Below are positions 1 through 1,253 of a DNA stretch of 24,199 bases, piece after piece. A program made the position numbers and the translations under genes. Where the stretch lies: the IMG/VR virus record IMGVR_UViG_2061766007_000921. One strand, 5' to 3'. Source of the stretch: an uncultured virus (IMG/VR IMGVR_UViG_2061766007_000921). Its lineage: Duplodnaviria > Heunggongvirae > Uroviricota > Caudoviricetes. The notes beneath the pieces are model-generated. The model had not been told where the DNA came from and did not search any database. It worked only from the letters and a program-made list of their open reading frames with translations. How positions within the stretch are numbered: the stretch's first letter is position 1; each line of letters opens with the position of its first letter.

Positions 1-77
1 ATTGGCTATTGTCTAACAAAGAAAATATACAAAAGCATAATTTCTAATACGTGCTCTACCAACTGAGCTACCCCTCC
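1..77 (-). ncRNA. 5' half of a tRNA-like RNA with an extended or interrupted anticodon arm; runs off the window edge
   Basis: Minus strand reads GGAGGGG TA GCTC AGTTGGTA GAGC A (canonical acceptor 5' strand and D-arm, 77-52). The next 51 nt contain no canonical anticodon arm, T-loop or acceptor 3' strand. Confidence 0.7.
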
Positions 78-188: not shown

Positions 189-283
189 TGGTGGGAAGAG
201 AGGGACTCGAACCCCCTTACTGCAAGGCCAATACGACAATTTGTGTTCAGGTTTGATTTACAGTCAAGTGTCGTTATCTTCCC
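189..283 (-). ncRNA. Non-canonical tRNA-Tyr(GTA)-like RNA with rearranged D-arm
   Basis: Acceptor GGGAAGA/TCTTCCC plus A-CCA; T-arm GGGGG-TTCGAGT-CCCTC; anticodon hairpin TTGA-CTGTAAA-TCAA. No D-arm in the normal position; ACGACA (274-269) pairs with TGTCGT (238-233). Confidence 0.8.
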
Positions 284-291
284 AAAAAATA

Positions 292-888
292 TCAATTTTT
301 TGTATGATAAAATTCTCTCCAATTACTAAATGTTTTATCAACTGCGAGTGTTTTCAAATATTCAATATCATATTTGTCTGTTGTGTGTATTACTCTGTGA
401 CAATTTGGACAAACAATTATTAAATTGTCAGCATCATTAGTTCCTCCTTTACTTTTTGGAACAATATGATGAATGTCACAAGAACTTTCATTCCAACCAC
501 AAATTGAGCAAGAACATTTTGCTCTATACAATATTTTTGATACTGTCCTTGATGACAAGTCTAACAAAGATTGTACCTCTTCTTTAACATGCACTCTTTG
601 TAATTTACAATCATTACAATGAATGTGTCTTCCTTTCTTTATTTGGCTCTTTCTTACAAATTCTTTTCCACATTTTTCACAAGTATAATGATATTCTTGA
701 TTTTCGTAATAAACTTTAATGCCATTACGTATTTTATCAAGCCGCTCCTGTGTCATTGGTCTAGAATTTGCACAGCTCAAAGAACAACAATGTTTGTATC
801 TTCCAGCTTTCCAATCAGCATCTGAACATGTTACTTCATATTCTTTTCCACATCTTTTACAAATACATATATGTGTTTGCTTTTCCAT
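292..888 (-). CDS. Free-standing HNH (homing) endonuclease with N-terminal zinc-binding repeats
   Basis: HNH motif CSICGW...DIHHIVPKSKGGTNDADNLIIVCPNCHRVIH; N-terminal CKRC, CSLSC, CEKC and CNDC modules. ATG at 888 (MEKQTH, 198 aa) preferred over the ORF-track start at 924. Confidence 0.9.
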   Translation of the reverse strand: MEKQTHICICKRCGKEYEVTCSDADWKAGRYKHCCSLSCANSRPMTQERLDKIRNGIKVYYENQEYHYTCEKCGKEFVRKSQIKKGRHIHCNDCKLQRVHVKEEVQSLLDLSSRTVSKILYRAKCSCSICGWNESSCDIHHIVPKSKGGTNDADNLIIVCPNCHRVIHTTDKYDIEYLKTLAVDKTFSNWREFYHTKN

Positions 889-979
889 AAAAAAATATAA
901 ATTTATTTTTATATTTATTCTCAAAGCCTTATAAAAAATTCACTTTTTCTACAGTCACTCGCGATTTCAAAGAACTTAG

Positions 980-1065
980 TGGGGGAGGAGGGATTCGAAC
1001 CCCCTGAGTTTCTGATGTGCTTGATCTACAGTCAAGTGCCCGACCACCATCCGAGCAGCTCCCCC
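980..1065 (-). tRNA. trnY: tRNA-Tyr(GTA), CCA not encoded
   Basis: GGGGGAG/CTCCCCC acceptor with A73; D-stem GCTC/GGGC; CTTGA-CTGTAGA-TCAAG; 15-nt poorly paired variable region; GGGGG-TTCGAAT-CCCTC. Atypical C8 and G37. Confidence 0.9.
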
Positions 1066-1078
1066 ATTTTTAAAATTG

Positions 1079-1151: not shown

Positions 1152-1173
1152 ATAATTTCAAAGAACTTAATTT

Positions 1174-1253
1174 TGGTACATAGGTGGGACTCGAACCCAC
1201 GTGAGATGATCAAACTCGAACCTGACATAAGCGTGCACAAACTTCCTATGTAC
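1174..1253 (-). ncRNA. Aberrant tRNA-like RNA with two T-loop motifs, possibly His-like
   Basis: 8-bp GTACATAG/CTATGTAC closing stem ending ..ACCA; perfect T-arm GTGGG-TTCGAGT-CCCAC. Interior holds AAGT-TTGTGCAC-GCTT and TCAGG-TTCGAG-TTTGA instead of D and anticodon arms. Confidence 0.7.

What the first reader, a model, noticed from the sequence alone, without database searches (positions are those of the whole stretch)
189..283. Internally permuted tRNA-Tyr: D-stem 5' strand and D-loop moved to the far side of the anticodon arm
Seen: order is acceptor, TA, ACGACA, C, anticodon hairpin (GTA), linker, TGTCGT-ATTGG, linker, T-arm, acceptor, ACCA. ACGACA sits where a D-stem 3' strand normally precedes the anticodon (compare GGGCA-CTTGACTGTA in the canonical Tyr gene at 980-1065). 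Its perfect complement TGTCGT, followed by a D-loop-like ATTGG, lies in the variable region. Tyr identity elements (G1:C72, A73, GTA) are intact and CCA is encoded, unlike the four canonical tRNAs. Inference: an L-shaped tRNA with rewired connectivity, acting as a nuclease-resistant tRNA or a decoy. Intact stems argue against simple decay.
Basis: partly seen in the sequence, partly recalled or inferred. Interest (0 to 1): 0.85.

Follow-up and report, generated by a model that had tools for sequence, protein, structure and literature searches.

The report
Rewired tyrosine tRNA of phages
This is a real and conserved phage tyrosine tRNA gene in which one strand of the D stem and the D loop sit inside the variable arm instead of their normal place, an architecture that standard tRNA finders miss.

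Summary
On the minus strand of 189-283 there is an acceptor stem, an anticodon hairpin (GTA), a T arm and ACCA, but no D arm. ACGACA (274-269) pairs perfectly with TGTCGT (238-233), which is followed by ATTGG. It is neither decay nor misassembly. I collected 31 distinct homologues from viral contigs and 81 more parsed from metagenome contigs, all with anticodon GTA. The helix is kept through compensatory changes. A second covarying helix (CTG/CAG, the variable-arm stem) crosses it, so the core is a pseudoknot. The genes lie in the tRNA clusters of large phages. In 11 of 12 records examined ARAGORN finds no canonical tRNA-Tyr. In three CheckV-complete genomes Tyr is the only one of 20 specificities missing, and each has exactly one rewired gene. 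The same rewiring occurs in tRNA-Ile (GAU, UAU) and in a second tRNA-Tyr family. Best reading: a working tRNA-Tyr with a transposed D-stem strand. Nuclease evasion (Septu and retron-Eco7 cut the tRNA-Tyr variable arm) is plausible but untested. Eight full-text searches found no description of this architecture.

The parts
277..283 (-). acceptor stem 5' strand GGGAAGA (tRNA positions 1-7)
   Evidence: Pairs with 193-199. All 7 pairs covary in 31 homologues, 96.3% of cells paired.
275..276 (-). U8-A9 equivalent (TA)
   Evidence: TA in 31 of 31 aligned members.
269..274 (-). helix H1 5' strand ACGACA; takes the place of the D-stem 3' strand (22-25) plus position 26 and runs straight into the anticodon stem
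   Evidence: Pairs with 233-238. The 5 core pairs are each paired in 31 of 31; 12:51 is GC 24 / AU 7; 13:50 shows five pair types; the sixth pair is kept in 21 of 31. Present in the MFE fold.
252..268 (-). anticodon arm CTTGA-CTGTAAA-TCAAA; anticodon GTA at 259-261; C.A mismatch at the top pair
   Evidence: Anticodon GTA in 31 of 31 aligned members, and in 81 of 81 parsed metagenome members found with a pattern that does not fix the anticodon. The C.A top pair occurs in 4 of 31.
247..250 (-). helix H2 5' strand CTG(A); variable-arm stem
   Evidence: Pairs with 220-223 (3 pairs plus A.G in this copy and in its nearest relative L209). Family: 98.3% paired, 3 of 4 pairs with compensatory changes. 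Chosen by RNAalifold.
239..246 (-). A-rich linker ACACAAAT; its 3' AAAT is invariant
   Evidence: Invariant columns in A1 and A3. In 11 of the 31 sequences AAAT was fixed by the search pattern; in the other 20 it was not.
233..238 (-). helix H1 3' strand TGTCGT; takes the place of the D-stem 5' strand (10-13)
228..232 (-). D-loop-like ATTGG (candidate A14 ... G18 G19)
   Evidence: The A and the GG are present in 31 of 31. They were not fixed by the pattern, which found 19 of the sequences.
224..227 (-). variable spacer CCTT
   Evidence: Not conserved in sequence or length across A3.
220..223 (-). helix H2 3' strand (G)CAG
200..216 (-). T arm GGGGG-TTCGAGT-CCCTC
   Evidence: 100% of cells paired, 3 of 5 pairs covary. 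Matched by RF00005.
189..199 (-). acceptor 3' strand TCTTCCC, discriminator A (192), encoded CCA (189-191)
   Evidence: Discriminator A in 30 of 31; CCA in 2 of 31.
292..924 (-). HNH endonuclease gene between the canonical and the rewired tRNA-Tyr genes (context)
   Evidence: Pfam HNH E 8.3e-12; PHROG HNH families. A contig of run X4 joins 217 to 1068 with 66 other letters, so that haplotype lacks this gene and one Tyr gene.
979..1065 (-). canonical class II tRNA-Tyr (GTA, G37) in the same cluster (context)
   Evidence: ARAGORN. In run X3 it differs at 8 places plus 2 insertions, while 205-283 shows none.

Best explanation
Window 283->189 (minus strand) encodes a functional tyrosine tRNA of a conserved, phage-borne structural class that I call type A. 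The acceptor stem, T arm and anticodon arm are canonical. The segment that normally follows U8-A9, namely the D-stem 5' strand and the D loop, is absent from that place. U8-A9 instead runs directly into ACGACA, which plays the D-stem 3' strand and continues into the anticodon stem. Its partner TGTCGT, followed by A-N-U-G-G (candidate A14 ... G18 G19), lies inside the loop of the variable-arm stem (CUG/CAG). The two helices cross, so the tRNA core is a pseudoknot. Shown here: the sequence anatomy; covariation of all five helices; an invariant GUA anticodon; its place in tRNA clusters; and that it is the only tRNA-Tyr candidate in most phages that carry it. Inferred: it folds into an L shape with the GG docking on the T loop, it is matured by RNase P, it is charged by TyrRS through A73 and the anticodon, and it decodes UAY. 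More speculative (about one in three): the rewiring persists because it remodels the variable arm and removes the D loop, the regions that tRNA-directed defence nucleases recognise or cut, so the phage keeps tyrosine decoding when host tRNA-Tyr is destroyed.
For: (1) Family and covariation. An anticodon-free scan added 11 more distinct type A. On 31 distinct sequences 97.1% of cells pair, against 39-50% when partners are slid, and 0 of 500 shuffles reach the covariation score. The H1 core is paired 31 of 31 at each of 5 pairs, two of them covarying. H2 is 98.3% paired with 3 of 4 pairs covarying. (2) Identity. Anticodon GTA in 31 of 31, and in 81 of 81 parsed metagenome members where it was not imposed. 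Discriminator A in 30 of 31. U8-A9 in 31 of 31. A73 and U35 are the main tyrosine identity elements (section 'Tyrosine identity' passages of PMC9976931). (3) Slot-filling. I ran ARAGORN over every listed RF00005-hit region of 12 type-A records. A canonical tRNA-Tyr appears in 1 (G001). G003, G011 and G032 (CheckV 100%) have 19 of 20 specificities and lack only Tyr. Each of the 12 records has exactly one type A gene, inside the tRNA cluster. (4) The design recurs. Rewired tRNA-Ile(GAU) is present in all 4 records where ARAGORN finds no Ile among the large sets (G002, G005, G014, G024). Rewired tRNA-Ile(UAU) occurs in 7 distinct sequences. Type B pairs 99.7% in its 6-bp H1, with all 6 pairs compensatory, in 64 sequences. 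(5) This copy. The covariance model scores it at 98.3 bits, against 100.6-113.9 for the five relatives searched in the same call. An independent DNA run shows no change in 205-283, while the HNH gene has 7 changes and the canonical Tyr gene has 8 plus 2 insertions. (6) Context for the defence idea. Septu and retron-Eco7 cleave tRNA-Tyr in the variable loop or stem, T5 tRNA-Tyr resists through a distinct variable loop, and a homing endonuclease (SegB) amplifies a phage tRNA-Tyr locus (passages of PMC13096335; passages of PMC11555353). Here an HNH gene sits between two Tyr genes.
Against: No direct evidence of transcription, processing or charging. The only RNA-library contig touching the element covers 200-244 with 4 differences, and such libraries can hold DNA. 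The L shape and the GG/T-loop contact are inferences; no 3-D tool was available. RNAalifold, which cannot draw pseudoknots, picks H2 and omits H1, so the two helices could also be alternative states. This copy has a C.A mismatch at the top of the anticodon stem and an A.G in H2. Both are shared with some relatives: the C.A in 4 of 31 and the A.G in 2 of 31. The window and G001 also carry a canonical tRNA-Tyr, so here the rewired gene is not strictly needed for decoding. The 'missing Tyr' tallies depend on ARAGORN and on the RF00005 hits that were listed; 15 and 7 low-scoring hits were not listed. Covariation comes from related sequences and reflects few independent events. Members were found with patterns that fix parts of the anticodon loop, T loop or H1 3' strand. 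A phage TyrRS accompanies type A in only 7 of 38 records (1 of 9 at >=90% completeness), so no dedicated synthetase is implied. Nothing tests nuclease resistance.
Confidence: 0.8

Rival explanations
1. It is a tRNA-shaped decoy or sponge. It binds and occupies tRNA-Tyr-directed defence nucleases (or TyrRS or modification enzymes) but is not used on the ribosome.
For: The window and G001 keep a canonical tRNA-Tyr beside it. Defence nucleases that act on tRNA-Tyr exist, and overexpressed phage tRNA-Tyr partly protects host tRNA-Tyr (passages of PMC13096335). The rewired core might not fit the ribosome.
Against: In 11 of 12 records it is the only tRNA-Tyr candidate, and in three complete genomes Tyr is the sole gap in the tRNA set. 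The anticodon loop (U33 in 30 of 31, GUA in 31 of 31, purine 37 in 31 of 31), A73 and the 7/5 acceptor-T geometry are all conserved, which is more than a nuclease decoy should need. Rewired tRNA-Ile fills Ile gaps in the same way.
Confidence: 0.1
2. It is a decaying or recombination-scrambled tRNA-Tyr pseudogene, produced by activity of the neighbouring HNH homing endonuclease.
For: It sits beside an HNH gene. A haplotype without the HNH gene and one Tyr gene exists. ARAGORN rejects it. There is one mismatch in the anticodon stem.
Against: The same architecture is present in 31 distinct viral-contig sequences and 81 parsed metagenome sequences, with compensatory changes in every helix. It occurs in phages that share no detectable homologue of the window's 823-aa gene. 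There was no change in an independent sample, while its neighbours varied.
Confidence: 0.03
3. It is an assembly artefact (a chimeric join inside a tRNA cluster).
For: tRNA clusters are repeat-rich, and contigs in other runs show several joints in 1-2400 (table 5).
Against: Two contigs of an independent run (X3) cover 1-229 and 205-1117 with no listed difference inside 189-283, only an AG insertion behind 284. The same gene order of segments recurs in dozens of unrelated assemblies.
Confidence: 0.01
4. It is a tRNA-like RNA with a non-translational job, for example a regulatory RNA, a primer, or a switch that alternates between H1 and H2. Its tRNA features serve only for processing and stability.
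For: H1 and H2 cross, and nested folding programs pick one or the other. The clusters also hold tRNA-like genes with H1+H2 but no anticodon hairpin (type D: L270 7166-7251, L272 3184-3267).
Against: The anticodon is invariably GUA even when not selected for (81 of 81). The Tyr slot argument applies. The loop lengths (about 10 and 9-12 nt) allow both helices at once.
Confidence: 0.05

Closest known systems
Bacterial class II tRNA-Tyr (long variable arm)
   Same: GUA anticodon, A73, G1:C72 in this copy, 7-bp acceptor, 5-bp T stem, and a variable-arm stem that starts one nucleotide after the anticodon stem and ends 3 nt before the T stem. Identity rules from passages of PMC9976931.
   Different: There is no D arm between positions 9 and 26. 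The D-stem 5' strand and D loop lie inside the variable-arm loop, giving a pseudoknot. ARAGORN does not recognise it.
Phage tRNA-Tyr used against Septu / retron-Eco7 (T5, T6, SP15)
   Same: A phage-encoded tRNA-Tyr in a tRNA-rich region next to a homing endonuclease. Resistance in T5 is attributed to a distinctive variable loop (passages of PMC13096335 and PMC11555353).
   Different: Those tRNAs are canonical cloverleaves, and evasion works through abundance or small loop differences. Here the whole D/variable core is rewired, and no defence test exists.
allo-tRNAs and other tRNAs with 8/4 or 9/3 acceptor branches (Mukai et al. 2017, PMC5389517)
   Same: Non-canonical tRNAs found in metagenomes and phages and missed by standard tools. 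The sister family type B has an 8-bp acceptor, a 3-4-bp T stem and a 6-bp D-stem equivalent.
   Different: Those keep the normal order of arms. Passages of that paper mention neither tRNA-Tyr of this kind nor a pseudoknot. Type A keeps the 7/5 branch.
Tyrosine-accepting tRNA-like structure of bromoviruses (BMV TLS-Tyr)
   Same: A viral RNA with non-tRNA topology that still presents A73 and anticodon-like U35/A36 to TyrRS (passages of PMC9976931).
   Different: TLS is the 3' end of an RNA genome, has a pseudoknotted acceptor end, does not decode and is not a classic L shape when free. Here the RNA is a free-standing gene in a DNA phage, with normal acceptor, T and anticodon arms.
Mitochondrial D-armless tRNAs (e.g. 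tRNA-Ser AGY, nematode tRNAs)
   Same: No D arm at the usual place, yet functional in translation (passages of PMC7609411).
   Different: They simply lack the arm and are shortened. Type A retains a D-stem equivalent and a GG loop supplied from elsewhere, and is longer (92 nt).
Circularly permuted and split tRNA genes (red alga Cyanidioschyzon, Nanoarchaeum; recalled, no call)
   Same: The gene order of tRNA segments differs from the canonical order.
   Different: There processing restores a canonical mature tRNA, and the rearrangement is a rotation or a split. Here it is an internal transposition that no circularisation could undo, so the mature RNA itself must be rewired.

Membership tests
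tRNA (canonical cloverleaf; Rfam RF00005) | 7-bp acceptor stem with unpaired discriminator | tested here: met
   GGGAAGA/TCTTCCC + A. 96.3% paired and covarying in 31 homologues.
tRNA (canonical cloverleaf; Rfam RF00005) | T arm with 5-bp stem and TTCRANY loop | tested here: met
   GGGGG-TTCGAGT-CCCTC. 100% paired.
tRNA (canonical cloverleaf; Rfam RF00005) | anticodon arm: 5-bp stem, 7-nt loop with U33 and purine 37 | tested here: met
   CTTGA-CTGTAAA-TCAAA; the top pair is C.A in this copy. Family 97.4% paired.
tRNA (canonical cloverleaf; Rfam RF00005) | D arm (stem-loop) between positions 9 and 26 | tested here: not met
   Only 6 nt lie between TA and the anticodon stem. Infernal deletes the D arm. 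ARAGORN makes no call, including with relaxed and mitochondrial settings.
tRNA (canonical cloverleaf; Rfam RF00005) | score at or above Rfam's gathering threshold | tested here: inconclusive
   31.6 bits against 29 in the permissive run, but not reported in the default gathering run.
Bacterial tRNA-Tyr (function) | anticodon GUA, A73, G1:C72 | tested here: met
   Family: GTA 31 of 31, A73 30 of 31, G1:C72 22 of 31.
Bacterial tRNA-Tyr (function) | tyrosylation by TyrRS and decoding of UAY | not testable with these tools
   Indirect only: it is the sole Tyr candidate in 11 of 12 phage records.
Type A rewired tRNA-Tyr (family defined here) | match to covariance model R1 over its full length | tested here: met
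   98.3 bits, E 3.9e-23, model 1-97. The window was one of the 20 training sequences, so it matches partly by construction.
Type A rewired tRNA-Tyr (family defined here) | H1 (post-U8A9 strand with variable-region strand) and crossing H2, then A-N-T-G-G | tested here: met
   ACGACA/TGTCGT 6 of 6; CTG/CAG 3 pairs + A.G; ATTGG.
Plant-virus tRNA-like structure (TLS-Tyr) | 3'-terminal element of an RNA genome with pseudoknotted acceptor end | tested here: not met
   It is a stand-alone gene in a DNA phage tRNA cluster with a plain acceptor stem.
Circularly permuted tRNA gene | 3' half upstream of 5' half, so that rotation restores the canonical order | tested here: not met
   The order is acceptor5'-D3'-anticodon arm-var5'-D5'/D loop-var3'-T arm-acceptor3'. 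This is a transposition, not a rotation.
tRNA pseudogene | loss of pairing or conservation; no purifying selection | tested here: not met
   97.1% of cells paired over 31 sequences with compensatory changes. Unchanged in an independent sample.

The most novel reading that the evidence does not exclude
Large phages carry a whole class of decoding tRNAs (tRNA-Tyr in two families, tRNA-Ile GAU and UAU) whose D-stem 5' strand and D loop have been transposed into the variable region. This gives a pseudoknotted core that still forms an L shape, is charged and works on the ribosome. The architecture is maintained because it makes these tRNAs invisible or uncleavable to host tRNA-directed immunity such as Septu/PtuAB, which cuts the tRNA-Tyr variable arm.
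Probability: 0.3. Interest if true: 0.92.

Novelty: new variant of a known kind. Interest (0 to 1): 0.85.

Why it matters
The order of arms in the cloverleaf is treated as nearly universal for decoding tRNAs. A conserved, covarying family in which one D-stem strand and the D loop come from inside the variable arm would show that the L shape can be built with different strand connectivity. It also matters practically. ARAGORN misses these genes entirely, so tRNA inventories of large phages undercount Tyr and Ile, which affects codon-usage, host-independence and recoding analyses. The link to tRNA-Tyr-directed defence systems becomes directly testable. Such tRNAs could also be starting points for orthogonal tRNA design. 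The claim of novelty rests on eight full-text searches that found nothing. Subscription journals and closed supplements were not covered.

Tried and rejected
These steps led nowhere.
- Exact-word scans of viral contigs with two stretches of the element found nothing.
- blastn of the element against named phages gave only T-arm-sized hits.
- No whole genome is held for the window.
- The 823-aa neighbour has no relative in IMG/VR by pattern scan, nor in G001-G005. Synteny could therefore not be used.
- Earlier-findings look-ups were empty.
- A scan with the anticodon stem-loop alone returned only canonical tRNA-Tyr genes and coding hits.
- A 7-base pattern search of five records was uninformative.

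Ideas tested and dropped.
- A dedicated phage TyrRS partner. It looked promising in G003-G005, where tyrS was the only aaRS among the four Pfam aaRS families searched. It did not generalise: 4 of 33 further records, and 0 of 7 at >=90% completeness.
- Levitt-type covariation between the nucleotide after A14 and the nucleotide before the T stem. I saw none, by eye, on A3.
- Compensatory pairs in the second odd element (1173-1253), using the RNA-contig variant. No consistent helix emerged (by hand).
- RNA runs. Contigs cover only 200-244 of the element, so they give no verdict on expression.
- The genome-contig scan found no type A in 185,579 species genomes, only type B. The pattern was exact-match, so this is weak evidence of absence.
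- The promoter/terminator scan gave nothing decisive.

Full report
**What is at 189-283**

Read on the minus strand, the 95 nt are GGGAAGA-TA-ACGACA-CTTGA-CTGTAAA-TCAAA-C-CTGA-ACACAAAT-TGTCGT-ATTGG-CCTT-GCAG-TAA-GGGGG-TTCGAGT-CCCTC-TCTTCCC-A-CCA.

ARAGORN calls four canonical tRNAs nearby (Tyr 979-1065, Lys, Ile, Arg) but not this gene. Rfam's tRNA model reaches 31.6 bits (threshold 29) only in the permissive run. It does so by deleting the D arm and inserting 32 nt in the variable region (absent).

The minimum-free-energy fold contains ACGACA/TGTCGT, but the z-score is only -1.85. The window alone is therefore suggestive, not proof.

**Setting**

The window is AT-rich (25-34% GC). It encodes an HNH endonuclease, DNA methylases, glycosyltransferases, an exonuclease and a late sigma factor with PHROG matches. 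The HNH gene resembles those of Lak megaphages and crAss-like phages at the DNA level. Runs that hold the DNA are mostly labelled bovine or goat gut metagenomes. It is a piece of a phage, and the element closes a minus-strand tRNA cluster.

**Homologues**

Exact-word scans failed. I then scanned viral contigs for a Tyr anticodon loop followed 32-52 nt later by a T loop, a spacing too long for normal tRNA-Tyr.
- 25 loci are the window's architecture (type A, 19 distinct sequences).
- 83 loci are a second architecture with the same topology (type B).
- 11 loci are other things.

A second scan fixed only AAATNGNNGTANTGG and the T loop, not the anticodon. It gave 37 loci, 28 of 30 distinct stretches being type A, all with GTA.

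The other 31 stretches did not pass my parser. Among the 25 of them printed I saw canonical tRNA-Ser genes, type D elements, truncated copies and a few type A variants.

No type A was found in one-genome-per-species bacterial and archaeal contigs; only type B appeared there.

**Covariation**

On 31 distinct type A sequences including the window (alignment A3) I counted pairs for the structure I specified, pseudoknot included.
- Overall, 97.1% of cells pair, against 39-50% when partners are slid by 1-3 columns. No shuffle of 500 reaches the observed covariation score.
- H1 (window ACGACA/TGTCGT): the five core pairs are each paired in 31 of 31. Pair 12:51 is GC in 24 and AU in 7. Pair 13:50 is GU 17, CG 6, UG 4, AU 3, GC 1. 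The sixth pair holds in 21 of 31.
- The metagenome set adds further H1 combinations such as ACAAC/GTTGT, ACTGC/GCAGT and ACATC/GATGT. That set was filtered for pairing, so it is not an independent count.
- H2 (window CTG/CAG): 98.3% paired, with UA/CG and GC/CG exchanges.
- H1 and H2 cross. RNAalifold cannot draw pseudoknots; it returns acceptor, anticodon arm, H2 and T arm and omits H1. The single-sequence fold returns H1. The loops between the strands (about 10 and 9-12 nt) are long enough for both to form, but alternation between them is not excluded.
- Invariant single-stranded positions include TA after the acceptor, AAAT before the H1 3' strand, and A..GG after it. These match U8, A14 and G18G19 of ordinary tRNAs by position. 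The match is an inference.

**Is it the phage's tRNA-Tyr?**

I took 12 type-A records: five chosen first, then all seven further records with CheckV completeness of 90% or more. I located all listed RF00005 hits, fetched those regions and ran ARAGORN.
- Each record has exactly one type A gene, inside the tRNA cluster.
- ARAGORN finds a canonical tRNA-Tyr in only one record (G001).
- In G003, G011 and G032, all rated 100% complete, 19 of 20 amino-acid specificities are present and the one missing is Tyr each time.

The same logic holds for isoleucine. In G002, G005, G014 and G024 ARAGORN finds no tRNA-Ile. Each holds a gene with acceptor, TA, a short strand, anticodon arm (GAT), linker, complementary strand, A-rich/GG loop and T arm. 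This is the same transposition without H2, which I call type C. A UAU version occurs in 7 distinct sequences. Its 3-bp helix reads CGC/GCG, CGG/CCG or CGT/ACG there, and CCG/CGG in a further copy in G032.

Type B, a Tyr family with an 8-bp acceptor and a 3-4-bp T stem, pairs 99.7% in its 6-bp H1, with all six pairs showing compensatory changes in 64 sequences.

The rewiring is thus a recurrent, selected design, and type A is best read as a working tRNA-Tyr.

**This copy**
- The covariance model built from the first 20 sequences scores it at 98.3 bits. The five relatives searched in the same call score 100.6-113.9, and the next class of hits scores 45 or less. The window was itself one of the training sequences.
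- Its C.A at the top of the anticodon stem is seen in 4 of 31, and its A.G in H2 is shared with its nearest relative L209.
- The encoded CCA is seen in 2 of 31 and is not a family feature.
- In an independent DNA run (X3), contigs cover 1-229 and 205-1117. No difference is listed inside 189-283, against 7 substitutions in the HNH gene and 8 substitutions plus 2 insertions in the canonical Tyr gene. This argues against misassembly and for constraint.
- A contig of run X4 joins 217 to 1068 with 66 other letters, so a haplotype exists with one Tyr gene and no HNH gene.

**Expression**

Expression remains open. One metatranscriptome contig covers 200-244 with 4 differences, which proves nothing.

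**Why rewired?**

Published work shows two relevant things (passages of PMC13096335 and PMC11555353). Septu and retron-Eco7 (PtuAB) block phages by cutting tRNA-Tyr in the variable loop or stem. Phages answer with their own tRNA-Tyr, and a homing endonuclease in the tRNA region can amplify that locus.

Type A buries the variable-arm loop in a helix and removes the D loop, and here an HNH gene sits between two Tyr genes. Escape from tRNA-directed nucleases is therefore a natural hypothesis, but I have no test of it.

A dedicated synthetase is not the explanation. A bacterial-type tyrS with the C-terminal SYY domain is present in 7 of 38 type-A records (split into two ORFs in G003), but in only 1 of 9 records at 90% completeness or more. 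In G001-G005 it was the only aaRS among the four Pfam aaRS families searched.

**Comparison and novelty**

Type A works like a class II bacterial tRNA-Tyr but fails the defining D-arm feature of the cloverleaf.
- It differs from D-armless mitochondrial tRNAs because a D-stem equivalent is kept.
- It differs from permuted or split tRNA genes because the mature RNA must itself be rewired.
- It differs from allo-tRNAs because in those the order of arms is normal.
- It differs from plant-virus TLS-Tyr because that is a genome end and not a decoder.

Eight full-text searches and passages of two reviews of non-canonical tRNAs found no description of this topology. Infernal-based pipelines may already list such genes as low-scoring tRNAs without noting the structure; I could not run tRNAscan-SE.

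I rate it a new variant of a known kind, of high interest.

Noticed in passing
window 1173-1253 (-): A second tRNA-like gene that ARAGORN misses. It has an 8-bp acceptor-like stem whose extra first pair would be G-1:C73 (the tRNA-His signature, recalled), a perfect T arm GTGGG-TTCGAGT-CCCAC, no D arm and an internal degenerate T-arm-like hairpin. I could find no clean anticodon arm. An RNA-library contig of depth 67 (X18) covers 1117-1259 with 10 differences.
   Followed up: partly
window 1-75 (-): The 5' part of a tRNA (GGAGGGG-TA-GCTC-AGTTGGTA-GAGC) with a canonical D arm. After that it does not continue as a normal anticodon arm before the window ends. It may be an intron-containing or otherwise unusual gene cut by the window edge.
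   Followed up: no
L120-L238 (83 loci), e.g. L148:281-368; genome loci L244, L245, L247, L252, L255, L258, L263, L265: Type B is a second rewired tRNA-Tyr(GTA) family. It has an 8-bp acceptor, a 3-4-bp T stem, a 6-bp transposed D-stem helix (99.7% paired, 6 of 6 pairs compensatory) and usually an encoded CCA. It also occurs in Planctomycetota/Phycisphaerae MAGs, Tateyamaria and a Neisseriaceae MAG. Two copies with identical gene sequence lie 36 kb apart in Neorhodopirellula pilleata, as if flanking an integrated element.
   Followed up: partly
L266:857-938, L272:7410-7491, L270:1996-2077, L273:7709-7788, L268:5427-5506, L331:6112-6196, L334:1292-1372, L336:16263-16425, L276-L284: Type C covers rewired tRNA-Ile genes (anticodons GAT and TAT). 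They show the same transposition of the D-stem strand and a GG loop into the variable region, but have no variable-arm stem. They fill the Ile gap in four phage tRNA sets.
   Followed up: partly
L270:7166-7251, L272:3184-3267 (also L408, L409, L424, L437): Type D elements have acceptor, T arm and crossing helices H1 (ACGGC/GCCGT, TCCCA/TGGGG) and H2 (TTCTGC/GCAGAA, TTCTAC/GTAGAA). Only 7 unpaired nt stand where the anticodon hairpin should be. The function is unknown.
   Followed up: no
L266-L273 (clusters of G001-G005): Many ARAGORN-called tRNAs for class I amino acids (Glu, Trp, Asp, Asn, Gln, His, Cys, Met, Thr, Lys, Arg) are 83-92 nt long, with long variable arms. Several 105-120-nt tRNA-like genes and two tmRNA calls also sit in these clusters.
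   Followed up: no
L322:1423-2706, L323:1186-2487, L324:1417-2717: Phage-encoded bacterial-type tyrosyl-tRNA synthetase (TIGR00234, with SYY C-terminal domain) occurs in 7 of 38 type-A records. In G003 it is split into two overlapping ORFs of 251 and 182 aa.
   Followed up: partly
window 979-1065 (-): The canonical tRNA-Tyr has G at position 37 and an unpaired 16-nt variable region. In run X3 it differs at 8 positions plus 2 insertions, far more than its surroundings.
   Followed up: no
window 218-1067: A contig of run X4 joins 217 to 1068 with 66 other letters. This haplotype has one Tyr gene that carries the rewired gene's 3' end and has no HNH gene, which suggests HNH-associated gain or loss of a Tyr gene.
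   Followed up: no
window 964-976 and 1155-1167 (-): An identical 13-nt motif AGTTCTTTGAAAT follows two tRNA 3' ends. A similar AGTTCTTTAAAT precedes tRNA-Ile. It may be a processing or promoter signal. There are 3 matches with up to 1 mismatch in the window, against 0.6 expected.
   Followed up: no
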